Positions 10,714 to 44,770 of a stretch of DNA of 64,000 nt are shown one piece after another. A program made the position numbers and the translations under genes. Numbering within the stretch: position 1 is the stretch's first letter; every line of letters begins with the position of its first letter. The stretch spans positions 14,487 through 78,486 of the forward strand of contig CAZGEX010000007.1 in assembly GCA_964524385.1 (NCBI GenBank). The letters run 5' to 3'. A model generated the notes under the pieces. It was not told the origin of the DNA and searched no databases. It saw only the letters and a list, made by a program, of their open reading frames with translations. Source of the DNA: an uncultured Sangeribacter sp. (GTDB taxonomy: Bacteria > Bacteroidota > Bacteroidia > Bacteroidales > Muribaculaceae).

Positions 10714-10985
10714 CGTATATCTATAATTTATTTTACACAAAAAAAGCATTATCCTATAGCGGACAATGCCAAAACTCTATAATTTCATCCTAATAGGATA
10801 AAATTTTTATTGAGCAGTTTTAGCATTTTTTTCAGTGGTTGCAAGCAGCCAAATTTTTCCACTTCGTATATCCCTTCGGAAATTTGTTGCAAAGGTAGTA
10901 TTTTTTTTGCATTTAAACTCATTATTGGCATTATTTAACATTTACACCTATCTTTTTTATTCTCATTTTTATTATCTTTGCATTG

Positions 10986-31879: not shown

Positions 31880-33265
31880 ATGAAAAAACAGATCATTAGT
31901 TTTATGCTTGTGACATCAATAGCAATGGTGCTATCACAAGAAACAAGAAGTGAAGAATTCACACGAGTTTTCACTCCATTCGATTCAGTTGCATTTTATG
32001 ATGGCTACAACGAAACCATTGTAGATGCCGACCTTGATGACGGAATATTACGTCATCGCAACTCTCTTTATGCAAAAAAACTTACCGACACACAACTTGA
32101 ATGGTTTGGAGAAGAACTTGATTTAAAAATCACCATAGGAGCGTTATGCGACAATTATGACCGCATAGGTAATCTCAATTTGTCACTCGTACCCAAAGGC
32201 GAAACAAGCTACGACCCATTTAAAGTTGACCGCATAGAATTGGCTCGCTTTATCACTCCATTTATGGATAAGAACAAATGGCCGGATGAAGTCAGCTATA
32301 AATATGACATAACTTCTGCGAGCTATATTTTCCGCGATAAGACATTACGCGACAAATATGATTATTGGTTGGAATTTGAAGTATTTGGAATTCCTTATGC
32401 CGCAAACACACAAATTTTAGGATGTCGCGACCGCAACGATGTATTTAACGGAACAGTAGAATTCATCAGCTCAGAGACAGCAGCCGAAGCTACCGATAAC
32501 CACGTATTCGTGCCAATCGTTATGAAAAAGCCCGAATATATCAGTTCCAACCTCAACAATTACAACGAAAATGGAACTGACACCATTGGCAAATGCACAA
32601 AAACATATAAGTTCAACGTACCTCAAAAAGTATCCGACTCGCAAATAGTGCTTATAACATCCAATCATGGAGCAAATGCATACGGAGAGGAATATAATCG
32701 TCGTCTGCATTTAGTATATCTCAATGGCGAACTTATCACTACTTACACTCCCGGAGGCGTCAGCTGCGAACCATTCCGCTATCTCAATACACAAACTAAT
32801 GGTATTTATGGAAACTCAAGAAGCGAAGTCAGCTGGAGAAATCAATCCAATTGGTGTCCCGGCGACCTTATCCCTATCAGATACCTCAATTTGGGTGAAC
32901 TTGAAGCCGGCGATTATGAAATCATGATTCGCGTACCGGATGCAGTGTTCCCTGAATCACAAGGCGACATCCCCGTATCGATGTATTTTCAAGGATTTAA
33001 AGAAGGAAATCTCCCTGTCGAAGTAGAAAGTGTCGAAATCGATGATTCCAAAACAAGAGTTTACCAACGAGGTAATAATGTCTATATCGATTCTCCGAAT
33101 ACGGTAACTGAAATCAGCATTTATACCTATGACGGCAAATTTGTCTACGGAAGTCATAACTCAATCAACAACGTCGACCTCAACGAATTTGAACAAGGTA
33201 TTTATCTTGTCAATTTTATGACAGATGACGGAATGATAACAACATATAAAGCAATTCGTAAATAA
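31880..33265 (+). CDS. Peptide-N-glycosidase F-like protein with T9SS C-terminal sorting domain
   Basis: CDNYDRIGNLNL...RFITPF and NWCPGD resemble the PNGase F CDEWDRYANVYV...RFITPY and GWCPGM segments. The last ~70 aa (ISIYTYDGKFVY...GIYLVNFMTDDG...KAIRK) look like a type-A T9SS CTD. Confidence 0.7.
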   Translation: MKKQIISFMLVTSIAMVLSQETRSEEFTRVFTPFDSVAFYDGYNETIVDADLDDGILRHRNSLYAKKLTDTQLEWFGEELDLKITIGALCDNYDRIGNLNLSLVPKGETSYDPFKVDRIELARFITPFMDKNKWPDEVSYKYDITSASYIFRDKTLRDKYDYWLEFEVFGIPYAANTQILGCRDRNDVFNGTVEFISSETAAEATDNHVFVPIVMKKPEYISSNLNNYNENGTDTIGKCTKTYKFNVPQKVSDSQIVLITSNHGANAYGEEYNRRLHLVYLNGELITTYTPGGVSCEPFRYLNTQTNGIYGNSRSEVSWRNQSNWCPGDLIPIRYLNLGELEAGDYEIMIRVPDAVFPESQGDIPVSMYFQGFKEGNLPVEVESVEIDDSKTRVYQRGNNVYIDSPNTVTEISIYTYDGKFVYGSHNSINNVDLNEFEQGIYLVNFMTDDGMITTYKAIRK

Positions 33266-33967: not shown

Positions 33968-34287
33968 CATTTAGCAAATTAATGTTAATCTACCCACAAA
34001 CAACACTTAATACTGTTAAATGTTATTAATATTTAGCGAAAATTATATGTTTTATAACATTGTTTTAGAAAATATAATTAACTTTGCATTGAGTTTTCAT
34101 GGTATTAGATTTTAAGGTTAACACATGGATTGGTTGTCGTGAGACAATCAATTTTTTTTGCGACAACCATCAGGAGTTATTTTCACCATTTGAATCTGAT
34201 TATAAAACACACACGTAAAAATCAAATACAACTAAAAAAATCGTTACAATAAAATTCAAAAGATTAGGTAATTACAAAAAAAAAGAG

Positions 34288-37472: not shown

Positions 37473-38405
37473 ATGACAGACAAGAAAAATAATTTTTGGT
37501 TTCACATCATCGTAATTATCGTCGTATCAATTTGGGGTACAACTTACATTTCAACATCAATCCTTCTTGATGGCGGACTTGAAGACACCTCCTCCGGCGG
37601 ACTGAAACCGATACAAATCTACACTTTACGGAGCATCATTGCCTATATCGGCTTGCTAATTGCCTGTCATAAACAAATCTTGGTCTCAAGCCTTCGCGAC
37701 GAACTGACTTTCATAGTTTTGGGACTTACAGGAGGAACTATTTACTATCTGTGTGAAAACACTGCCGTAGAACTTGGAAACACATCTAACGTTTCGCTCA
37801 TTATCTCCACCGTTCCAATAGCGACAATGCTACTGACAGCCGCAGTGCATAAGAAGAAAATTTCATCCCTGATGATAGTTGGTTCGCTGATTGCACTCAC
37901 AGGGATTACGTGTGTTATCTTAGCCGACAACAATAAATTCAGCATCGGATTTGATGCATTCAGAGGCGATTTGCTTGCCCTCGCCGCCGTTGGTTCTTGG
38001 GCCATCTATAGCGTAATCATTCCTACGATGTTCGACCGCTACTCCTCTTTGTTTGTAACTCGCAAGGTATTTTTCTATGGGATGCTGTCAGCTGTAATTA
38101 TTTTGATTGTCTCCGGTCAAGATATATTCCCTATTGAAATCATTTCTCGCCCAATTGTGGCAAGCAATCTCCTATATCTCGGATTAATCGCATCTCTTTT
38201 ATGCTTTTGGGTATTCAATATTGCAATTCAAAGAATCGGGATAGTCGTCACCAACAACTATGGCTATCTTACACCGGTAGTTACCTTTATATTTGCCATT
38301 CTAATTCTCGGGGATGAATTTAATTGGTACGGAATTATCGGAATATCCATTACTCTACTCGGATTGTGCATCGCACAACGTAACGACACAAGCCTCAAAT
38401 CCTAA
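37473..38405 (+). CDS. DMT superfamily (EamA-type) transporter
   Basis: 310 aa, about 10 TM segments, two EamA-like halves. Confidence 0.8.
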   Translation: MTDKKNNFWFHIIVIIVVSIWGTTYISTSILLDGGLEDTSSGGLKPIQIYTLRSIIAYIGLLIACHKQILVSSLRDELTFIVLGLTGGTIYYLCENTAVELGNTSNVSLIISTVPIATMLLTAAVHKKKISSLMIVGSLIALTGITCVILADNNKFSIGFDAFRGDLLALAAVGSWAIYSVIIPTMFDRYSSLFVTRKVFFYGMLSAVIILIVSGQDIFPIEIISRPIVASNLLYLGLIASLLCFWVFNIAIQRIGIVVTNNYGYLTPVVTFIFAILILGDEFNWYGIIGISITLLGLCIAQRNDTSLKS

Positions 38406-38623: not shown

Positions 38624-38631
38624 TATATTTG
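38624..38631 (+). promoter_or_regulatory. Candidate -7 promoter box (TATATTTG) for the RiPP operon
   Basis: TAnnTTTG match 41 nt upstream of the precursor ATG at 38672. No ATG occurs anywhere in the 266-nt gap after eamA. Confidence 0.4.
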
Positions 38632-38671
38632 CCTTAGAATATATATTTCACAACTTTTAAATAATAATATC

Positions 38672-38956
38672 ATGAGTACTAAAAAAATTTTTGACATTCC
38701 TGAATTGACAAGGGATGAGGCAGGAAAACTTTTTGGAGGATTTGTATCATTAGATCCAAGTGGAGGTGTTGACTCTTCGGGAATAAACATTCTTTGCACA
38801 AACACTAATTGTAGCTGTCCGTCCAACCCGATTTCTACATGCGGAGAAACTAATTCTCAATCATGCACATCAAACCCCTCATCTTGCACTACCAACAATG
38901 GTTGTCCCACTAACTTTATCGGTTGTTCTACAAATGTAGTTGAAGGATGCGATTAA
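38672..38956 (+). CDS. RiPP precursor peptide: double-glycine leader plus Cys/Thr/Ser/Asn-rich core
   Basis: 94 aa. Leader MSTKKIFDIPELTRDEAGKLFGG, with a second GG at residues 31-32. The core has 9 Cys and no basic residue. It lies immediately upstream of a radical-SAM/SPASM gene and a C39-peptidase ABC exporter. Confidence 0.85.
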   Translation: MSTKKIFDIPELTRDEAGKLFGGFVSLDPSGGVDSSGINILCTNTNCSCPSNPISTCGETNSQSCTSNPSSCTTNNGCPTNFIGCSTNVVEGCD

Positions 38957-38991
38957 AATTTAACTAAATTGAACTCTATAATTTTTGTGTA

Positions 38992-40281
38992 ATGAAATGG
39001 AATAAATTCATTAGTGTTATAAAACAACCCCAAAACTCGAATAACAGCTACATTATAAACTATTATAACGGGCAGTTAATTTATGTTGTTGATAAATTAG
39101 CAGAATTAGTCATAAATAATACTAACAATATAGAAAACATATTTGAAACACATCCAACATTTGCACAAGAATTATATAAAAAGGGATTCATTGTAGATAA
39201 AAATTTAGACATCCCAAAGATGTGCATTGAAAAACTGAACAACTATTATACTGACAGAAGCGAAATTCGACTCACAATTAACCCTACCTTAGACTGTAAT
39301 TTAAGATGTTGGTACTGCTACGAGGAACACAAAAACGGTACAAAAATGAGTGCAGACATAATAGAAAGCATACTCAAATATTTAGAACTCCAACTTATTT
39401 ATCCTACGAAAAAGTTGATACTCTCATTCTTTGGTGGCGAACCTTTAATTTGTTATAATGATGTAGTTCTAATATTATGCTCCAAGATTAAGGAACTTTG
39501 TACAAGAAACAACATTGAACTGATTATTTCGTTTACAACAAATGGAACATTACTAACTAAATCAAGAATTGAGAAATTACTTTCAATCCACAACAATTTA
39601 TTTTTTCAAATCCCATTTGATGGAAGTGGCGACACTCATAATCTCACAAAACATTTTAAGAACAAAAATGGGAGTTACGACTTAATTTTAAAAAACGTAA
39701 AAAGTGCAATAACACATAAAGGAGTTGAAATTAATATTAGATGCAACTATACCTTAAATAATATTGAATCATTCCGCGAATTAATTAATGAATTTAAAAC
39801 ATATACCGATTACTCTAATTTTTATTTTGATTTTCATCGAGTATGGCAAGAAAAGGAAACCTCAATTCTTAAATCTAAATTAATTGAAATCCAACAATAT
39901 ACCATTAACACTTTAAGCAAAAATCATTTATTAACAATAAAACCCACTCGATGTTATGCAGACAATTATCATAACATCATAATAAACTATGATGGAGGCA
40001 TTTACAAGTGTACTGCCAGAGATTTCAACGACCGACATATTATTGGGCATATTAACAAAAACGGTACAATTACTCAAATATTTCGTAAAATTGAAGATCG
40101 AAATTCTAAATTTATTCTTCCTTGCTGCAAAGAATGTAAAATTCTTCCTATATGTAATATCTGCGGACAAAAGAAAGATGAGTTTATTGATGGTAATTGT
40201 CCATTTATAGATAACTCCGACTATCATCACCAATTAATTTACAACTACTTACAAAAACTATTAACTAATTCTATTTTATAA
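38992..40281 (+). CDS. Radical SAM / SPASM-domain peptide maturase
   Basis: 429 aa. CNLRCWYC (Cx3Cx2C) at residues 102-109. C-terminal C-x14-GGIYKC and CCKECKILPICNIC auxiliary-cluster motifs. About 90 aa precede the core and could be a peptide-recognition element. Confidence 0.85.
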   Translation: MKWNKFISVIKQPQNSNNSYIINYYNGQLIYVVDKLAELVINNTNNIENIFETHPTFAQELYKKGFIVDKNLDIPKMCIEKLNNYYTDRSEIRLTINPTLDCNLRCWYCYEEHKNGTKMSADIIESILKYLELQLIYPTKKLILSFFGGEPLICYNDVVLILCSKIKELCTRNNIELIISFTTNGTLLTKSRIEKLLSIHNNLFFQIPFDGSGDTHNLTKHFKNKNGSYDLILKNVKSAITHKGVEINIRCNYTLNNIESFRELINEFKTYTDYSNFYFDFHRVWQEKETSILKSKLIEIQQYTINTLSKNHLLTIKPTRCYADNYHNIIINYDGGIYKCTARDFNDRHIIGHINKNGTITQIFRKIEDRNSKFILPCCKECKILPICNICGQKKDEFIDGNCPFIDNSDYHHQLIYNYLQKLLTNSIL

Positions 40282-40284
40282 ATT

Positions 40285-42369
40285 ATGAATAGACATCTTT
40301 TATTTGTAACTACCATAATCATTTCTTTAAATGCGGTTGCAAAGTCTACCGACAATCATTCGAATGATACAACATATAAAGAATTAAAGGAATTTGTTGT
40401 AGAAGGACAATCTTCATTTATAACAGATAATGGAATGATATTTATTCCAAACAAACAAGTAAAAAATGCCTCTAATGATGCTATCTCACTCTTGAGGAAT
40501 ATGGCAATTCCTGTGCTTCAGATAGATCCATTAGGAAATTCTGTTAAAAACATTTCAAATTCTGATGTCAACATTTTCATCGATTTTCAACCTGCTACCC
40601 AACAAGAAATTTTGGGTATGCGTACAAAAGATGTAGTCCGAGTGGAATATTATGACAATCCGACAGACCCAAGATTCAAGGGTTCGAGAGCTGTTGTAAA
40701 TTTTATAATGAAGAAATATCAATATGGTGGTTATTTAAAACTAAATGCAGGACAATCATTTTTTTATAATGCCGGTGACTATCGTCTGTATTCAAAAATC
40801 AGTCATAAACGAATGACATACGACATTTCGTTAGGAGCAAAATATGCCATAGACAACGGTAAAAGAGTGTCTTCTCTTCACAACTATCATTTTGTTGATG
40901 ATTTTACCGAAAAATACACAATTCAAAGAATATCTGAAGGGGAGGGGAGGGATAAATCCAACACTGCATACGCATCTTTTAGAGCGAGATACTCTACCAA
41001 TAAAATATTAATATCCAACGAAATAGGCTTAACCGGGAACAAAAAGCCCTACTCTTTTATCAATGGGGAAGTCGCTTTTAACTCACTGCCATACAGCGAT
41101 TTCAACAACAACAATACATCTCAATCACTCTCCCCATATTTTAGCGGTAATTACTTTTTTGTTCTATCTAACAGAAGTACATTAAGTGCATCCGTAAACT
41201 TCTCTTACTCGAGAAACAAATCATGGCAAAACTACATTTCCGGTAAATCCGAACCTATTGTCAACAATTCTGACGAACACGTATATTCGCCTAACATTTC
41301 CATCAATTATAACTATAATCTCGGACATAACAATTCTTTTAACCTTGATATTTGGAGTGCAAATAATATTTACAAAAGCGACTATCGCGGATCTTTTGAA
41401 GGCAAACAGTCATTCATCACAAACGATAATTTAATAATCCCATCTTACACTCACAGAATTGGAAATAAAATAAATTTATATGCACGATTAGGACTGCTTG
41501 TTAGTACATTTGACGTAAACGGCAACAAATACTCTCAACTCAACCCACGCATAGGAGCACAACTATCATACACTATTAACAATAAAAATAACCTAAATTT
41601 TCAATTTTGGTTAGCAAGTTCAAATGTACCATTTTCATACATCAATGATGTACTTATGCAAGTCAACGAAATTGAATGGAAACAAGGGAACAATAGTCTT
41701 AAAGGTATGCCATGGTATATGACTACATTAGCCTATACATGGTTGCCAACAAATAAGTTTAGTCTTGCCACATCTTCTTATTTTGAATGCTACACAAATA
41801 AATTTATGCCTGTCTATAATCAATTCGACGACCATATGATTGTCAAATACATCAATAAAGGCGGATGGATAAGATTACGCGAAACCATACAAGCTACCTA
41901 CCGTCCAATAAAAGAAATCACTCTATCCGGATGGTGCCAATATGGCAACTATTTCTGTTACGATGGGAACTATGCAAGAGTTTCAAAAATAATGGGAGGA
42001 CTTAATGCCACCGGCTATTGGAAAAACTTTAGTCTCAATTTATTTTATAGGACTGAAATAACAGATCTAAGTACCCGCTCGGAAAAAGTAACCGTTCCTC
42101 ATCAATACGGATTAGTACTAAGTTACGGCAATTCAAATTGGTGGGCACAACTTAGTGTAATCAACATATTTGATTCTCAAAATTACCGCAATACAATTAT
42201 CGATGTTCCTAATTTTAATTCGAACGAAACCATCTACAGTAATTCAGGAGGGCGAAGCATCGGACTTTCTATTAGCTACACATTTGATTTTGGAAAGAAA
42301 ATAAATCATAGCGACGAATTAAAAGCCCCATCTGAAAACAAATCGGCTATCATGAAAGTAGCAGAATAA
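40285..42369 (+). CDS. Outer-membrane beta-barrel protein (TonB-dependent-receptor-like / OMP_b-brl_3-like)
   Basis: 694 aa. Signal peptide, plug-like N-region (KELKEFVVEGQS...VVRVEYYDNP) and alternating beta-strand pattern ending in SISYTFDF, then a 25-aa tail. Confidence 0.7.
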   Translation: MNRHLLFVTTIIISLNAVAKSTDNHSNDTTYKELKEFVVEGQSSFITDNGMIFIPNKQVKNASNDAISLLRNMAIPVLQIDPLGNSVKNISNSDVNIFIDFQPATQQEILGMRTKDVVRVEYYDNPTDPRFKGSRAVVNFIMKKYQYGGYLKLNAGQSFFYNAGDYRLYSKISHKRMTYDISLGAKYAIDNGKRVSSLHNYHFVDDFTEKYTIQRISEGEGRDKSNTAYASFRARYSTNKILISNEIGLTGNKKPYSFINGEVAFNSLPYSDFNNNNTSQSLSPYFSGNYFFVLSNRSTLSASVNFSYSRNKSWQNYISGKSEPIVNNSDEHVYSPNISINYNYNLGHNNSFNLDIWSANNIYKSDYRGSFEGKQSFITNDNLIIPSYTHRIGNKINLYARLGLLVSTFDVNGNKYSQLNPRIGAQLSYTINNKNNLNFQFWLASSNVPFSYINDVLMQVNEIEWKQGNNSLKGMPWYMTTLAYTWLPTNKFSLATSSYFECYTNKFMPVYNQFDDHMIVKYINKGGWIRLRETIQATYRPIKEITLSGWCQYGNYFCYDGNYARVSKIMGGLNATGYWKNFSLNLFYRTEITDLSTRSEKVTVPHQYGLVLSYGNSNWWAQLSVINIFDSQNYRNTIIDVPNFNSNETIYSNSGGRSIGLSISYTFDFGKKINHSDELKAPSENKSAIMKVAE

Positions 42370-42374
42370 AGACA

Positions 42375-44570
42375 ATGAAAAAGTTTACCTTTGTCAAACA
42401 AAAAGACTCGATGCAATGTGGTGTTGCTTGCTTGAAAATGATATGTCAACATTATGGTAAAAACATAAATATCGACTATCTTGAAAATCTATGCAATACT
42501 ACAATTCAAGGTGTGTCAATACTTAATTTATGTGACACAGCCGAACACATCGGATTTCATACTATTGCCGGACGTCTAACTATTCAGCAACTCATTGAAT
42601 CGACTAAACCGGTTGTCTTACATTGGCATCAAAATCATTTTGTCGTACTATATCGAGTGACCGGACAAGGTAAAAAATTCTATATTGCAGACCCGGGAAT
42701 AGGACTAATAAAATATTCACGCCACGATTTCGAAAAAGCGTGGATAAGTTCTAATACCAATAATGAGGATAGAGGTATTGCTCTACTATTACAACCTACC
42801 CCTTCATTTTTCTCTCACGACTTCAATCTTGAAAAGGTCGAAACACGATCATTCCGCTTTTTGTTTGGATACATCAAACAATATAAGCATTATTTTAGCC
42901 AAATTATTCTCGGGCTACTTATAGGTAGTGTTTTGCAATTAGTTTTCCCTTTTCTAACACAGTCTATTGTGGATGTCGGCATATTTGATAACGATATTAA
43001 CTTCATCCTACTTGTTCTTGTCGCACAACTTATGCTCACGCTTGGTTATGCATCTGTAGGATTCATACGTCGGTGGATATTACTACATGTCGGCATCAGA
43101 ATAAACATCTCATTATTAAGCGATTTTTTCATAAAATTACTAAAGCTCCCGATGAATTTTTTCGACACAAAATTAATGGGAGACATAATGCAAAGAATGA
43201 ATGATCACCAACGAATTCAAACCTTTCTTACATCATCAGTATTGGAAATCACTTTTTCAATAATTAGCTTTATTGTATTAGGCATTGTACTTTTCTTTTA
43301 TAATCCGATTATATTTAGCATCTTAATTCTCGAGAGCATTCTATACGCAATTTGGACTATTCATTTTATGTCAAGACGAAAAGTACTTGACTATATGCTA
43401 TTTGAAAAAAGAGCCAAAAACAGCAATAACACATATCAGTTCATTACATCTATGCAAGAAATAAAACTTCAAGATTGTGAACGTCGGCGTCGTTGGGAAT
43501 GGGAAGATGTACAAGCTGATATGTTTGAAGTTGACATTAAATTATTAAAATTACAACAAACACAAGAAGCCGGAAGTCTGCTTATTAACGAAATTAAAAA
43601 TATTGTTATTACTATATTATCCGCTATAGCTGTAATAGATGGGGAAATGACATTGGGGATGATGCTTGCCGTGCAATATATAATAGGACAACTTAATACC
43701 CCTGTAAAACAACTTATGAATTTCCTATATTCACTCCAAGATGTAAAAATAAGCCTTGAACGAATTAATGACATTCAAGGACAGACAGAAGAAGATGCCA
43801 AATATGGTAATAACACAGATTTTTCAAGAGGTGGTGACATCTGCCTTTCTAATATCTCATTTCGCTATGACCTTTCACTCAGAAAGAATATACTGAACAA
43901 TATTTCCATAATAATACCTGAGGGTAAAGTTACAGCAATAGTAGGAGCAAGTGGAAGTGGCAAAAGCACTTTATTAAAATTAATTCTTGGTTTCTACCCG
44001 GCTACTTCAGGCAACATTACAATAGGCGGTATAAATATTTTAGAATATAACATACGTTGGTGGCGACGACAATGCGGTGTTGTGATGCAAGATGGTGTTA
44101 TATTTTCCGAATCAATAGCACATAATATTGCAGTAAACGACGAGGAAATTGATATGCATCGTCTAGAAGAAGCCGCACAAATGGCCGGCATCACAGATTT
44201 CATAAATTCACTACCTCTAAAATATAACACTATAATAGGAAGAGATGGAATTGGAATAAGTCAAGGTCAACGACAACGTATATTAATAGCAAGAGCAATC
44301 TATAAGCATCCTAAATACATATTTCTGGATGAAGCAACAAATTCTCTTGATGCTAACAATGAACGTCGAATTACTGAAAATCTTGAAAATTTCTATAAAC
44401 ACAGAACCGTCTTTATCATAGCACATCGTCTTAGCACAGTAAAAAAAGCCGATCAAATTATCGTACTTGACAACGGAGAAGTAATTGAAACCGGCAATCA
44501 TAACCAATTAATATCAAAAAAGGGTAAATACTTTCATTTAGTCAAAGACCAACTTGAATTAGAAGCATGA
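42375..44570 (+). CDS. Peptidase-C39-domain ABC transporter (bacteriocin-processing exporter, PCAT type)
   Basis: 731 aa. C39 motifs QCGVACLKM (Cys), HFVVLY (His) and IADPG (Asp). Six-TM domain. Walker A GASGSGKST, signature LSQGQRQR, Walker B IFLDEATNSLD. Confidence 0.9.
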   Translation: MKKFTFVKQKDSMQCGVACLKMICQHYGKNINIDYLENLCNTTIQGVSILNLCDTAEHIGFHTIAGRLTIQQLIESTKPVVLHWHQNHFVVLYRVTGQGKKFYIADPGIGLIKYSRHDFEKAWISSNTNNEDRGIALLLQPTPSFFSHDFNLEKVETRSFRFLFGYIKQYKHYFSQIILGLLIGSVLQLVFPFLTQSIVDVGIFDNDINFILLVLVAQLMLTLGYASVGFIRRWILLHVGIRINISLLSDFFIKLLKLPMNFFDTKLMGDIMQRMNDHQRIQTFLTSSVLEITFSIISFIVLGIVLFFYNPIIFSILILESILYAIWTIHFMSRRKVLDYMLFEKRAKNSNNTYQFITSMQEIKLQDCERRRRWEWEDVQADMFEVDIKLLKLQQTQEAGSLLINEIKNIVITILSAIAVIDGEMTLGMMLAVQYIIGQLNTPVKQLMNFLYSLQDVKISLERINDIQGQTEEDAKYGNNTDFSRGGDICLSNISFRYDLSLRKNILNNISIIIPEGKVTAIVGASGSGKSTLLKLILGFYPATSGNITIGGINILEYNIRWWRRQCGVVMQDGVIFSESIAHNIAVNDEEIDMHRLEEAAQMAGITDFINSLPLKYNTIIGRDGIGISQGQRQRILIARAIYKHPKYIFLDEATNSLDANNERRITENLENFYKHRTVFIIAHRLSTVKKADQIIVLDNGEVIETGNHNQLISKKGKYFHLVKDQLELEA

Positions 44571-44770
44571 ACAAACAAAAAGAAAAAAATGAAATGCATA
44601 GTAGTAAGGTTCGAAACATTTTGCAACAACGTCCGATTTGGTTGGTTCGAAATGGTATCGCTATAATTTTTATAGTATTAATTATAATGCTTGCAATTGC
44701 TACTTTTATCAATTTAGATGATAATAAAACATTTATCGACAAAATCTTTATTCATAGCCATTTACTCTGA
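44567..44770 (+). pseudogene. Truncated HlyD-family periplasmic adaptor (N-terminal 67 aa only)
   Basis: ATGA overlap with the ABC gene. The sequence SKVRNILQQRPIWLVRNGIAIIFIVLIIMLAIATFI matches the N-terminal TM anchor of Bacteroidetes HlyD adaptors, but the ORF stops after 67 aa. Only 78 nt remain before the convergent GSCFA gene. Confidence 0.55.

What the first reader, a model, noticed from the sequence alone, without database searches (positions are those of the whole stretch)
38624..44770. Compact radical-SAM RiPP operon: GG-leader Cys-rich peptide, SPASM maturase, OM barrel, C39-ABC exporter
Five ORFs on one strand are separated by 35, 3 and 5 nt and a 4-nt ATGA overlap. They encode a 94-aa peptide with a double-glycine leader, a radical-SAM enzyme with SPASM-type auxiliary Cys motifs, a 694-aa outer-membrane beta-barrel, a peptidase-C39 ABC transporter and a stub of an HlyD adaptor. 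This is the architecture of a ribosomally synthesised, post-translationally modified peptide (RiPP) that is processed and exported after a GG site. From memory, a computationally defined 'GG-Bacteroidales' rSAM maturase/precursor family exists in TIGRFAMs/NCBIfam. I know of no experimentally solved product or chemistry for such Bacteroidales clusters. No dehydratase, cyclodehydratase, methyltransferase or immunity gene is present, so all tailoring would depend on the one rSAM enzyme.
Basis: partly seen in the sequence, partly recalled or inferred. Interest (0 to 1): 0.9.

Follow-up and report, generated by a model that had tools for sequence, protein, structure and literature searches.

The report
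Rare Cys/Asn-rich radical-SAM peptide operon
This is a real, intact five-gene operon in a gut Bacteroidales (Muribaculaceae-like) bacterium that makes, probably cross-links and exports a cysteine/asparagine-rich peptide. It is a rare member of a large, widespread family that has not been studied experimentally, and it pairs the modifying enzyme with a TonB-type outer-membrane barrel and a miniature adaptor protein in place of the usual TolC/HlyD export parts.

Summary
Five same-strand ORFs (38672-44770) sit 35, 3 and 5 nt apart, with a final 4-nt overlap. They encode a 94-aa double-glycine-leader peptide with 9 Cys, a radical-SAM/SPASM maturase, a 694-aa barrel, a C39-ABC exporter and a 67-aa membrane protein.

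The RiPP reading holds, with four corrections:
- **No curated family fits.** Neither enzyme nor precursor reaches any NCBIfam cutoff, so GG-Bacteroidales membership is not supported. The enzyme belongs to a large uncurated Bacteroidales family (at least 241 loci in reference genomes). Its closest solved structure is the thioether synthase CteB.
- **The barrel has a TonB-dependent-transporter fold, not a TolC fold.** It is the enzyme's most faithful neighbour (55 of 65 loci).
- **The "HlyD stub" is a conserved mini-adaptor.** Versions of 48-75 aa recur in at least nine clusters.
- **Cores carry Asn three residues before Cys (NxxC), family-wide.** The window adds a CxxN repeat tail seen in only one other locus. 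This suggests Cys-Asn thioether rings.

The barrel's transport direction is unresolved, because one relative has the barrel plus a full HlyD and TolC. A sibling strain carries a decayed copy. I found no experimental study. I rate it a new variant of a known kind, of moderate interest.

The parts
38624..38631 (+). Candidate Bacteroidetes-type -7 promoter element (TATATTTG = TAnnTTTG), 41 nt upstream of the precursor ATG
   Evidence: This is weak evidence on its own (110 matches in the window against about 76 expected). Its position in the 266-nt intergenic gap after the EamA gene fits an operon start. No convincing internal + strand terminator was found.
38672..38740 (+). Leader region of the precursor (residues 1-23, MSTKKIFDIPELTRDEAGKLFGG), a double-glycine leader
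   Evidence: One search gives the translation. L-12, E-8, A-7, L-4 and GG match the canonical double-glycine pattern (established knowledge). IPEL...L.GG|F is invariant across the four related precursors. The ...xEGxLxGG|F leader is shared by more than 100 family precursors.
38741..38956 (+). Core region of the precursor (71 aa, 9 Cys, 10 Asn) plus stop codon. It has a conserved head, G-x-N-x-x-C-x-N-T-N-C-x-C, followed by a tail of C-x-x-N repeats
   Evidence: All 9 Cys, with near-identical spacing (5,2,8,8,7,6,7,8 against 5,2,9,7,7,6,6,8), are conserved in the 47%-identical L002 peptide. In these two cores, Asn sits at +3 of Cys in 10/17 cases (z 4.8) and at -3 in 9/18 cases (z 4.1).
38992..40281 (+). 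Radical-SAM/SPASM peptide maturase (429 aa): N-terminal RRE-like beta3-alpha3 domain (about residues 1-87), rSAM core (C102-x3-C106-x2-C109) and a 7-Cys SPASM-type domain
   Evidence: invariant Cys. CteB 5WGG, E 7.5e-25. AF2 pLDDT 90.8, and CteB at TM 0.68 over 449-473 alignment columns.
40285..42369 (+). Outer-membrane protein with a TonB-dependent-transporter fold (694 aa): signal peptide, conserved LKEFVVE TonB-box-like motif (residues 34-40), plug-like domain and large beta-barrel
   Evidence: L34 and V39 nearly invariant. (pLDDT 84.7, pTM 0.79). (all top PDB matches are TBDTs, E down to 6e-18, TM 0.48-0.58). Relatives carry PF14905, some with CarboxypepD_reg. A barrel lies next to the rSAM gene in 55/65 and 34/48 loci.
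42375..44570 (+). Peptidase-containing ABC transporter (PCAT, 731 aa): C39 domain with Q9/C15/H88/D106, six-helix ABC membrane domain, and an ATPase with intact Walker A, signature, Walker B and H-loop
   Evidence: PF03412 E 9e-33; TIGR03796 439 bits and TIGR01193 378 bits, both below their cutoffs. The motifs were read from the translation.
44567..44770 (+). Mini membrane-fusion-protein (67 aa): the cytoplasmic N-terminal motif plus the single TM helix of an HlyD-type adaptor. It is translationally coupled to the PCAT by an ATGA overlap
   Evidence: Homologues of 48-75 aa follow the PCAT in at least 9 distinct clusters, and homologues of 117-168 aa in about 10 more. The same N-terminal motif heads a full-length 437-aa HlyD_3 protein in L030.

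Best explanation
This is an intact, horizontally mobile operon for a ribosomally synthesised, radical-SAM-modified peptide.

**Shown by the analysis**
- One transcription unit encodes a 23-aa double-glycine leader followed by a 71-aa Cys/Asn-rich core.
- The maturase has an RRE-like leader-binding domain, a CX3CX2C SAM cluster site and a 7-Cys SPASM domain.
- The transporter is a catalytically intact C39-ABC transporter.
- The outer-membrane protein has a TonB-dependent-transporter fold.
- The last gene is a conserved 67-aa remnant of an HlyD adaptor.

**Inferred**
1. The maturase binds the leader and uses 5'-deoxyadenosyl radical chemistry. With auxiliary-cluster activation of Cys thiols, it installs several intramolecular thioether rings. 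The most likely links are Cys-S to an Asn side-chain carbon, in the NxxC head and the CxxN repeats. Each ring would cost 2 Da.
2. The PCAT cleaves after Gly23 and pumps the cross-linked core across the inner membrane. The adaptor has no periplasmic domain and no TolC is encoded, so the peptide is released into the periplasm.
3. The TonB-type barrel then handles the peptide at the outer membrane. Export, in the manner of Oar/PopC, is slightly favoured over re-uptake.

The product's biological role (bacteriocin, signal or metal binder) is unknown. The locus is accessory: it has low GC, sits in a variable site, and is decayed in a sibling strain.
For: - **Operon and domains:**
- **Conserved synteny:** the same five genes occur in a different context in L002.
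- **Enzyme motifs:** invariant rSAM and SPASM cysteines across 26 homologues.
- **Closest curated relatives:** all are Cys-rich-peptide or thioether maturases (TIGR04463 134 bits, geopeptide, CefB, PapB 118 bits).
- **Closest solved structure:** CteB by sequence profile (E 7.5e-25) and by fold (TM 0.68, with the N-terminal RRE-like domain aligned).
- **NxxC motif:** Asn at -3 of Cys is enriched family-wide, at 188/255 (z 23), 82/170 (z 12) and, in the independent metagenome set, 88/264 (z 8.5). In the window plus L002, CxxN is 10/17 (z 4.8).
- **Chemical precedents:** NxxcB forms a Cys-Asn beta-thioether in an NxxC motif (PMC9389541). PapB forms Cys-Asp/Glu thioethers (PMC9413430).
- **Barrel:** TBDT fold and tight linkage to the rSAM gene.
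- **Mini-adaptor:** conserved across clusters.
- **TBDT-mediated secretion:** demonstrated for Oar (PMC6434023).
- **Accessory status:** GC of 31-34% against 37-42% in the flanks; decayed sibling copy; variable site.
Against: - No chemistry has been measured. Thioether formation and Asn as the acceptor are inferred from homology and motif statistics.
- In the window peptide only 3 of 9 Cys have Asn at -3, so the ring topology is ambiguous between NxxC and CxxN.
- The enzyme is below every curated family cutoff and is only about 18% identical to CteB.
- The Bacteroidales enzyme is probably not an orthologue of NxxcB. SuiB, a streptococcal RaS-RiPP enzyme, matches poorly (TM 0.42-0.45), but NxxcB itself was not compared.
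- L030 encodes a PCAT, a full HlyD and a TolC-like OEP, and still has the TBDT-like barrel. This argues that the barrel does something other than replace TolC.
- The window barrel lacks the CarboxypepD_reg extension found in Oar.
- There are no expression data. A sibling strain has lost the cluster's function.
Confidence: 0.6

Rival explanations
1. The RiPP operon is as described, but the TonB-type barrel is an importer or receptor for the mature peptide. It would take up a signal or a metal-loaded peptide, as TonB-dependent transporters do for siderophores and, from my own knowledge, as MbnT does for methanobactin. Alternatively it confers self-protection. Export across the outer membrane would then use host components encoded elsewhere.
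For: - Every characterised structural neighbour of the barrel is an importer (BtuB, FpvA, Cir, XusA, FepA).
- A TonB-box-like motif is conserved.
- L030 carries the barrel alongside a complete PCAT + HlyD + TolC-like set, so the barrel is not redundant with an exporter.
- The barrel is more tightly linked to the enzyme and precursor (55/65) than the PCAT is (29/47).
- A core with 9 Cys could bind metal if not all thiols are consumed.
Against: - In the window, and in about 20 other clusters, the adaptor is cut down to its membrane anchor and no TolC is encoded. The cluster would then have no way across the outer membrane other than the barrel.
- No inner-membrane importer, periplasmic binding protein, regulator or sensor is encoded in or beside the operon.
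- Secretion through a TBDT has a precedent in Oar (PMC6434023).
Confidence: 0.3
2. The radical-SAM enzyme performs chemistry other than thioether formation, for example epimerisation, C-C or C-O cross-linking, or alpha-carbon sactionine links. The cysteines would then form disulfides or stay free.
For: - The enzyme is below all curated cutoffs.
- SPASM enzymes with similar folds carry out varied reactions. TigE (8vpo) matches at TM 0.65 and, from my own knowledge, is a cyclopropyl synthase. Other matches are ChlB, SuiB (Lys-Trp) and EpeE (an epimerase).
- The periplasm would allow disulfide formation after export.
Against: - The best sequence and fold matches are thioether-forming or Cys-rich-peptide maturases.
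- Cys is the most conserved core residue. Its positional coupling to Asn is very strong across more than 100 precursors, as expected if both residues are reaction partners.
- An alpha-carbon (sactipeptide-type) link is a sub-variant of the main hypothesis and not really a rival.
Confidence: 0.25
3. The operon in this genome is a silent or decaying relic that no longer makes a product.
For: - The sibling strain L087 (about 95% nucleotide identity, same site) has a 711-bp deletion in the rSAM gene, a 1125-bp deletion removing the PCAT ATPase domain and most of the small ORF, a split barrel gene and a frameshifted precursor.
- The subtype is extremely rare.
- No regulator or immunity gene is present.
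Against: - All five ORFs in the window are full length with intact catalytic motifs.
- A third strain, L091, keeps an intact precursor whose three amino-acid changes all lie outside the Cys/Asn-rich region of the core. Its rSAM gene is also intact.
- The tight spacing and the ATGA coupling are preserved.
Confidence: 0.07
4. The radical-SAM protein is a non-peptide enzyme such as an anaerobic sulfatase maturase, and the small ORF is fortuitous.
For: anSME appears among the structural and sequence matches (E 3e-11; TM 0.52-0.56).
Against: - Peptide maturase families score far higher.
- No sulfatase gene is nearby.
- A GG-leader Cys-rich ORF is conserved next to the enzyme across the family.
- An RRE-like domain is present.
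Confidence: 0.02

Closest known systems
PapB / freyrasin-type ranthipeptides (Cys-Asp/Glu thioethers in repeated CxxxD motifs; PMC9413430)
   Same: - A single rSAM/SPASM maturase acts on a precursor with a repeated short Cys-x-x(-x)-acceptor motif, which would give a string of small rings.
- PapB is among the best NCBIfam matches (118 bits).
   Different: - The score is far below the PapB cutoff of 340.
- The acceptor here would be Asn, not Asp/Glu, and the spacing is CxxN or NxxC.
- The host is Gram-negative Bacteroidales, with a PCAT, a TBDT-like barrel and a mini-adaptor.
CteB / SCIFF-thermocellin maturase (PDB 5WGG)
   Same: - It is the closest solved structure by sequence profile (E 7.5e-25) and by fold (TM 0.68).
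- It has the same three-part layout: RRE, rSAM core and SPASM.
   Different: - Identity is about 18%.
- The SCIFF precursor family and the TIGR03974 model do not match.
- CteB links Cys to Thr C-gamma (as summarised in PMC10352776 and PMC9389541).
NxxcB / NxxcA streptococcal RaS-RiPP (Cys-Asn beta-thioether in an NxxC motif; PMC9389541)
   Same: The NxxC motif is the dominant core feature of this Bacteroidales family. It occurs three times in the window peptide (NILC, NTNC, NNGC).
   Different: - Enzyme orthology was not tested. SuiB, a streptococcal RaS-RiPP enzyme, matches poorly (TM 0.42-0.45), and NxxcB's relation to SuiB is from my own knowledge.
- There is no shp/rgg quorum-sensing context.
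- There are many motifs per peptide rather than one, and the window adds CxxN repeats.
Bacteroidales rSAM RiPP clusters surveyed by Fernandez-Cantos et al. 2023 (PMC10352776)
   Same: They share GG-motif precursors, a PCAT and an OMP with 'no MFP identified', in Bacteroidales. All were predicted bioinformatically only.
   Different: - That paper does not mention TonB (zero text matches) and identified no MFP in those clusters.
- I found no mention there of an Asn/Cys motif, but I did not search for one.
- Its detailed cluster, BGC8, also carries a YcaO.
- I could not check whether any of its nine clusters belongs to this rSAM family, because the sequences are in figures.
Oar, the TonB-dependent transporter needed for PopC secretion in Myxococcus (PMC6434023)
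   Same: It is a TBDT-fold outer-membrane protein with a TonB box that acts in two-step secretion. Relatives of the window barrel share Oar's CarboxypepD_reg N-terminal extension.
   Different: - The window barrel lacks that extension.
- The cargo here would be a 7-kDa cross-linked peptide delivered by a PCAT, not a protease.
- The function is untested.
Classical PCAT-MFP-TolC type I secretion of class II microcins such as colicin V (PMC12219008, PMC10352776)
   Same: It uses a double-glycine leader, and a C39-ABC transporter cleaves and exports the peptide.
   Different: - The adaptor is reduced to 67 aa.
- No TolC-type protein is encoded.
- The outer-membrane partner is TBDT-like.
- The peptide is enzymatically modified.

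Membership tests
Radical-SAM/SPASM RiPP maturase superfamily | CX3CX2C radical-SAM cluster motif | tested here: met
   C102-N-L-R-C106-W-Y-C109 is invariant in 26 homologues. PF04055 hits at E 1e-14.
Radical-SAM/SPASM RiPP maturase superfamily | C-terminal SPASM domain with about 7 Cys (CX9-15GX4C ... CX2CX5CX2-3C ... C) | tested here: met
   C321-x13-G335-x4-C340, C379-x2-C382-x5-C388-x2-C391 and C403 are all invariant. The Pfam SPASM model PF13186 does not reach threshold on the window protein, but it hits homologue P0007.
Radical-SAM/SPASM RiPP maturase superfamily | N-terminal RiPP-recognition (RRE-like) domain and an adjacent precursor gene | tested here: met
   The AF2 model shows beta3-alpha3 in residues 7-63, and CteB aligns over 449-473 columns. 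The precursor lies 35 nt upstream.
Ranthipeptide maturases (PapB NF047865; SCIFF maturase TIGR03974) | Score above the curated family cutoff | tested here: not met
   PapB scores 118 bits against a cutoff of 340. TIGR03974 is not among the 25 best hits.
Ranthipeptide maturases (PapB NF047865; SCIFF maturase TIGR03974) | Product contains Cys-S to non-alpha-carbon thioethers | not testable with these tools
   This needs MS/MS and NMR of the modified peptide.
GG-Bacteroidales rSAM system (NCBIfam/TIGRFAM; maturase, precursor and pseudo-rSAM models recalled from memory) | Maturase matches the family model above its cutoff | tested here: not met
   No such model appears among the 25 best NCBIfam hits, all of which have E<=2e-7. 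None appears for four other family enzymes at E<=1e-20.
GG-Bacteroidales rSAM system (NCBIfam/TIGRFAM; maturase, precursor and pseudo-rSAM models recalled from memory) | Precursor matches the family leader model | tested here: not met
   The window precursor and four of five other family precursors have no NCBIfam hit at E<=10. The fifth has only a spurious weak PyrD match. HMMER's filters may hide very weak matches.
GG-Bacteroidales rSAM system (NCBIfam/TIGRFAM; maturase, precursor and pseudo-rSAM models recalled from memory) | Accompanying pseudo-rSAM protein | tested here: not met
   There are only five genes in the operon and none resembles a second rSAM-like protein.
NxxC RaS-RiPP (NxxcA/NxxcB) | NxxC motif in the core peptide | tested here: met
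   3 of 9 Cys in the window peptide have Asn at -3. Family-wide the figures are 188/255, 82/170 and 88/264, with z from 8.5 to 23.
NxxC RaS-RiPP (NxxcA/NxxcB) | Enzyme orthologous to NxxcB, in a streptococcal shp/rgg context | not tested
No regulator genes flank the operon.
Type I secretion (PCAT-MFP-TolC) | PCAT with a catalytic C39 domain and an intact ATPase | tested here: met
   PF03412, PF00664 and PF00005 all hit. Q9/C15/H88/D106 and the Walker motifs were read from the translation.
Type I secretion (PCAT-MFP-TolC) | Full-length periplasm-spanning membrane fusion protein | tested here: not met
   The protein is only 67 aa, comprising the N-terminal motif and one TM helix. No HlyD Pfam domain is found.
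Type I secretion (PCAT-MFP-TolC) | TolC-type outer-membrane channel | tested here: not met
   The cluster's OMP has a TBDT fold. No OEP gene was found among the 15 genes examined (26396-47822).
TonB-dependent transporter | Plug domain inside a 22-strand barrel | tested here: met
   The AF2 model has pLDDT 84.7. The 50 listed matches are all TBDTs, with E from 6e-18 to 1e-15. This rests on a model only, and strands were not counted rigorously.
TonB-dependent transporter | Match to the Pfam Plug / TonB_dep_Rec / OMP_b-brl_3 models | tested here: not met
   The window protein has no Pfam hit even at E<=10. Relatives in other clusters hit PF14905.
TonB-dependent transporter | Functional TonB box | tested here: inconclusive
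   An LKEFVVE motif follows the signal peptide. L34 and V39 are nearly invariant in 31 homologues. Interaction with TonB has not been tested.

The most novel reading that the evidence does not exclude
Bacteroidales have evolved a TolC-independent, two-step secretion route for peptides. A PCAT, held by a membrane-anchor-only mini-adaptor, releases a radical-SAM cross-linked peptide into the periplasm. A dedicated TonB-powered, Oar-like barrel then moves it across the outer membrane. The cargo would define a new RiPP class built from multiple Cys-Asn thioether rings (NxxC/CxxN). The window peptide, with up to nine cross-links, would be its most elaborate known member.
Probability: 0.3. Interest if true: 0.8.

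Novelty: new variant of a known kind. Interest (0 to 1): 0.55.

Why it matters
Bacteroidales dominate mammalian gut communities, yet no modified peptide of this kind from them was found characterised in the literature searched here. This operon belongs to a family present in at least 241 loci across species-representative genomes. Hosts include Prevotella/Segatella, Muribaculaceae, Alistipes, Phocaeicola and Tannerellaceae. The family has no curated model and no known product.

Three features give concrete, testable hypotheses:
- A family-wide Asn-x-x-Cys motif points to a specific cross-link chemistry.
- A TonB-type barrel is the maturase's most constant partner.
- The HlyD adaptor is progressively reduced, from 437 aa to about 160, about 130 and about 60 aa. 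This suggests that a peptide can cross a Gram-negative envelope without TolC.

Cultured strains carry family members, so the questions can be addressed experimentally. They include Segatella salivae DSM 15606, Prevotella falsenii DSM 22864, Phocaeicola sartorii DSM 21941 and Muribaculaceae isolates. The window's own subtype has a 71-aa core with 9 Cys. It is a good substrate for in vitro chemistry but is too rare to matter ecologically.

Tried and rejected
1. **Family libraries for the precursor, barrel and small protein.** Pfam and NCBIfam gave no hits, even at E<=10.
2. **Literature on the best-matching NCBIfam families.** A search for OhkG, FlmE, Cys-every-fifth, TIGR04463 and geopeptide returned only noise. 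Five other searches found no experimental work on this family. The held library lacks most subscription journals, so absence is not proof.
3. **dN/dS of the precursor.** L091 differs at only four codons, and L087 is frameshifted, so no estimate was possible.
4. **Sigma-70 promoter and terminator scan.** It is uninformative for a Bacteroidetes genome (45 sites against 35 expected). I used only the TAnnTTTG motif, and only as weak evidence.
5. **More members of the window's subtype.** An exhaustive phmmer search of 1.84 billion representatives found only L002's peptide and one partial relative. The metagenome scan found no enzyme closer than 41% identity.
6. **A clean empty site in relatives.** None was found. 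The region after EamA holds other cargo instead.
7. **Naming the organism.** No source names it. AsnS relatives at 92-93% identity are Muribaculaceae MAGs.
8. **Anaerobic sulfatase maturase reading.** Considered and rejected.
9. **"The barrel simply replaces TolC".** Weakened by L030, which has both.

Full report
**1. Observation**

The five ORFs are exactly where the finding puts them:

| Gene | Coordinates (+ strand) | Length |
|---|---|---|
| Precursor | 38672-38956 | 94 aa |
| rSAM enzyme | 38992-40281 | 429 aa |
| Barrel | 40285-42369 | 694 aa |
| C39-ABC transporter | 42375-44570 | 731 aa |
| Small protein | 44567-44770 | 67 aa |

- The gaps are 35, 3 and 5 nt, and the last junction is a 4-nt ATGA overlap.
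- The finding's start (38624) coincides with TATATTTG, a match to the Bacteroidetes -7 promoter motif, 41 nt before the ATG. The motif alone is weak evidence.
- No convincing internal terminator was found.
- The flanking genes are housekeeping: DEAD helicase, gltX, Kdo transferase, pseudouridine synthase, asnS and EamA upstream; GSCFA and an OmpA/TPR protein downstream.
- The operon has 31-34% GC against 37-42% around it.
- AsnS is 92-93% identical to Muribaculaceae MAG proteins, so the host is probably an uncultured Muribaculaceae-like Bacteroidales species.

**2. The genes**

*Enzyme.*
- It hits Radical_SAM and Fer4_12 in Pfam.
- In NCBIfam its best matches are all peptide maturases of Cys-rich substrates: TIGR04463 (134 bits, cutoff 525), geopeptide maturase, CefB, PapB (118 bits, cutoff 340) and Clo7bot. 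It is far below every cutoff.
- An alignment of 26 homologues shows an invariant CX3CX2C motif and a 7-Cys SPASM pattern.
- A profile search of the PDB puts CteB first (E 7.5e-25).
- The AF2 model (pLDDT 90.8) has an N-terminal beta3-alpha3 RRE-like domain. It superimposes best on CteB (TM 0.68), ahead of TigE (0.65) and anSME (about 0.55).

*PCAT.*
- It has Peptidase_C39, ABC_membrane and ABC_tran domains.
- The Q9/C15/H88/D106 residues and the ATPase motifs are all intact (read from the translation).

*Precursor.*
- The leader MSTKKIFDIPELTRDEAGKLFGG fits the double-glycine pattern.
- The 71-aa core has 9 Cys and 10 Asn.

**3. The family**

- The enzyme has one exact copy in the protein collection, one relative at 51% identity, and then a large family at 35-41% identity. 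In total, 3688 proteins reach E<=0.001.
- Family motifs found 241 confirmed loci in 185,579 species-representative genomes. Nearly all are Bacteroidales: Prevotella/Segatella, Muribaculaceae, Alistipes, Phocaeicola, Tannerellaceae and Porphyromonadaceae.
- The 51% relative (L002) has the same five genes in a different genomic context.
- I mined 71 distinct candidate precursors (two look spurious) from the session loci, mostly genome contigs, and 43 more from metagenome loci. They share a leader of the form ...xEGxLxGG|F and have Asn/Cys-rich cores.
- Three layouts occur:
  - upstream precursors with a 4-Cys core such as ...NGNC.GGGW.DTNTNC..C..C;
  - precursors placed downstream of the enzyme, with many NxxC repeats and hydrophobic C-terminal tails;
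  - an 'IESLP' leader type.
- None of the six precursors tested matches a relevant NCBIfam model. Four representative enzymes from other subgroups are also below every cutoff.

**4. The motif**

Asn three residues before Cys is strongly enriched over shuffled cores:

| Set | Asn at -3 of Cys | z |
|---|---|---|
| Downstream-type cores | 188/255 | 23 |
| Other upstream-type cores | 82/170 | 12 |
| Independent metagenome set | 88/264 | 8.5 |

- The window peptive shares an invariant head, G-x-N-x-x-C-x-N-T-N-C-x-C, with its relatives. It then adds a tail of C-x-x-N units: CPSN, CTSN, CTTN, CPTN and CSTN.
- In the window plus L002, Asn at +3 of Cys is 10/17 (z 4.8) and Asn at -3 is 9/18 (z 4.1).
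- All 9 Cys and their spacing are conserved between two peptides that are only 47% identical.
- NxxC is the motif in which the streptococcal enzyme NxxcB makes a Cys-Asn beta-thioether (PMC9389541). PapB makes Cys-Asp/Glu thioethers in repeated motifs (PMC9413430).
- I therefore infer multiple Cys-Asn thioether rings. The chemistry is not shown, and the ring register (NxxC or CxxN) is open.

**5. The subtype is rare**

- An exhaustive HMMER search of 1.84 billion representative proteins found only L002's peptide and one partial relative. That relative sits in a cluster with glycosyltransferases.
- A scan of 241 million metagenome records found no enzyme closer than 41% identity.

**6. The barrel**

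- It has no Pfam hit, but the AF2 model is confident (pLDDT 84.7, pTM 0.79).
- Every top PDB match is a TonB-dependent transporter: BtuB3, FpvA, Cir, XusA, FepA and OprC (E down to 6e-18, TM 0.48-0.58).
- An LKEFVVE motif after the signal peptide is conserved and looks like a TonB box.
- Relatives in other clusters carry PF14905, and some also carry CarboxypepD_reg. That is the Oar architecture (PMC6434023).
- The barrel follows the enzyme in 55 of 65 genome loci and 34 of 48 metagenome loci. A PCAT lies within 8 kb in only 29 of 47.
- Barrel size tracks precursor type: about 690-790 aa with upstream precursors and about 920-1000 aa with downstream ones.

**7. The 'stub'**

- A profile built from the small proteins finds homologues of 48-75 aa directly after the PCAT in at least nine distinct clusters. 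It finds four longer versions of 156-168 aa.
- By position, proteins of 117-146 aa follow the PCAT in about seven more clusters.
- The same N-terminal motif heads a true 437-aa HlyD_3 protein in L030.
- The 67-aa ORF is therefore a conserved mini-adaptor. It keeps the cytoplasmic segment and the TM helix and has lost the periplasmic part. This addresses the open point in PMC10352776 that 'no MFP was identified' in such clusters.

**8. Mechanism and its weak point**

- With no periplasmic adaptor and no TolC, the PCAT should release the peptide into the periplasm. The barrel is then the only cluster-encoded route across the outer membrane. Oar shows that a TBDT can secrete (PMC6434023).
- Against this, L030 has a PCAT, a full HlyD, a TolC-like OEP and the barrel as well. 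The barrel therefore cannot be just a TolC substitute. Re-uptake, sensing or self-protection remain live alternatives.
- I put export at about 0.4 and import or receptor at about 0.3.

**9. Population data**

- A sibling strain (L087, about 95% identity) carries the cluster at the same site. It has a 711-bp deletion in the enzyme gene, a 1125-bp deletion removing the PCAT ATPase domain and most of the small ORF, a split barrel gene and a frameshifted precursor.
- A third strain (L091, GCA_052830485.1) is intact over the part covered. Its precursor has three amino-acid changes, all outside the Cys/Asn-rich region of the core.
- In more distant relatives, the site after EamA holds a type I restriction-modification system or other genes.
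- The operon is thus an accessory island that is gained and lost.

**10. Verdict**

- It is a rare, elaborated member of a large uncharacterised Bacteroidales family. The distinctive traits of that family are the NxxC cores, the TBDT-like barrel and the mini-adaptor. I found none of these three traits described in the literature I could search.
- It is a new variant of a known kind and not a new category. The chemistry and the barrel's direction need experiments.

Noticed in passing
L087:4538-8734 (sibling of window 38672-44770): A strain about 95% identical has the same operon at the same site, but every gene is damaged. The rSAM gene has a 711-bp deletion, a 1125-bp deletion removes the PCAT ATPase domain and most of the small ORF, the barrel is split into 431 + 220 aa, and the precursor has two 1-nt deletions. 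The 1-nt indels lie in homopolymer runs and could be assembly errors. The large deletions are more reliable.
   Followed up: yes
window 38672-40274 compared with 37473-38405 (L091); window 40055-43558 compared with the flanks (L087): The operon is less diverged between strains than its flanks. Against L091, the rSAM gene differs at 7 of 427 codons and EamA at 25 of 311. Against L087, the operon is 97.9% identical and the flanks about 95-96%. This hints at recent transfer or recombination of the island.
   Followed up: partly
L030:342-9206: An Alistipes MAG cluster encodes a PCAT, a full-length HlyD (437 aa), a TolC-like OEP (446 aa) and the TBDT-like barrel (786 aa, PF14905 + CarboxypepD_reg), followed by the precursor and the rSAM gene. 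It is the only full adaptor seen in the family, and it bears on what the barrel does.
   Followed up: partly
L041, L045, L046, L055, L070, L080, L084, L108, L128-L136 (precursors just downstream of the rSAM gene): Many downstream-type precursors end in a Ser/Thr/Pro-rich linker and a hydrophobic, aromatic C-terminus (...SLLF, ...MSMLF, ...FSFVF, ...NLIF). This resembles the C-terminal beta-signal of outer-membrane proteins. The window peptide lacks such a tail. I did not investigate it.
   Followed up: no
L005, L006, L017 (Muribaculaceae): One family member sits on what looks like a mobilisable element with Mob_Pre relaxases, ParA, a resolvase and a ThiF-like gene. Its rSAM protein (P0078) is listed for 750 contigs and 1123 index blocks, so this version is common and mobile.
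   Followed up: no
L003 / L007:1-11742 (Prevotella MAG): Two clusters of the family lie in tandem. The first has a precursor, rSAM, a 963-aa barrel, a PCAT and a 168-aa adaptor. The second has a precursor, rSAM and a 774-aa barrel, and apparently shares the first cluster's PCAT.
   Followed up: no
L088 / L089:6500-17771: The only other partial relative of the window precursor lies in a cluster with two glycosyltransferases (GT2 and a Branch family enzyme) and has a Ser/Thr-rich tail. This suggests a glycosylated variant of the family.
   Followed up: no
window 10810-10868 (-): A SAM-II riboswitch (long-loop type), 62 bits against a gathering score of 44.
   Followed up: no
window 34091-34161 (+): A Bacteroidetes FopS-family small RNA (RF04319, 68 bits), in the gap before the pseudouridine synthase gene.
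   Followed up: no
window 31880-33265 (+): A PNGase F-like protein (N-glycanase N- and C-terminal domains), unrelated to the operon.
   Followed up: no
L092:12492-21326, L093:12492-15628: In Muribaculaceae relatives with 93% AsnS identity, the position after EamA holds a DUF1016/YhcG gene, an MFS transporter and, in one of them, a type I restriction-modification system. The site looks like a hotspot for accessory genes.
   Followed up: partly
window 40285-42369 compared with 38992-40281: The operon may be a mosaic. The enzyme and leader are closest to the upstream 4-Cys subgroup (39-40% identity). By phmmer, the barrel matches only barrels from the 'IESLP'-leader subgroup (L053, L058, L069, L081, L082). 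This is weak evidence.
   Followed up: no
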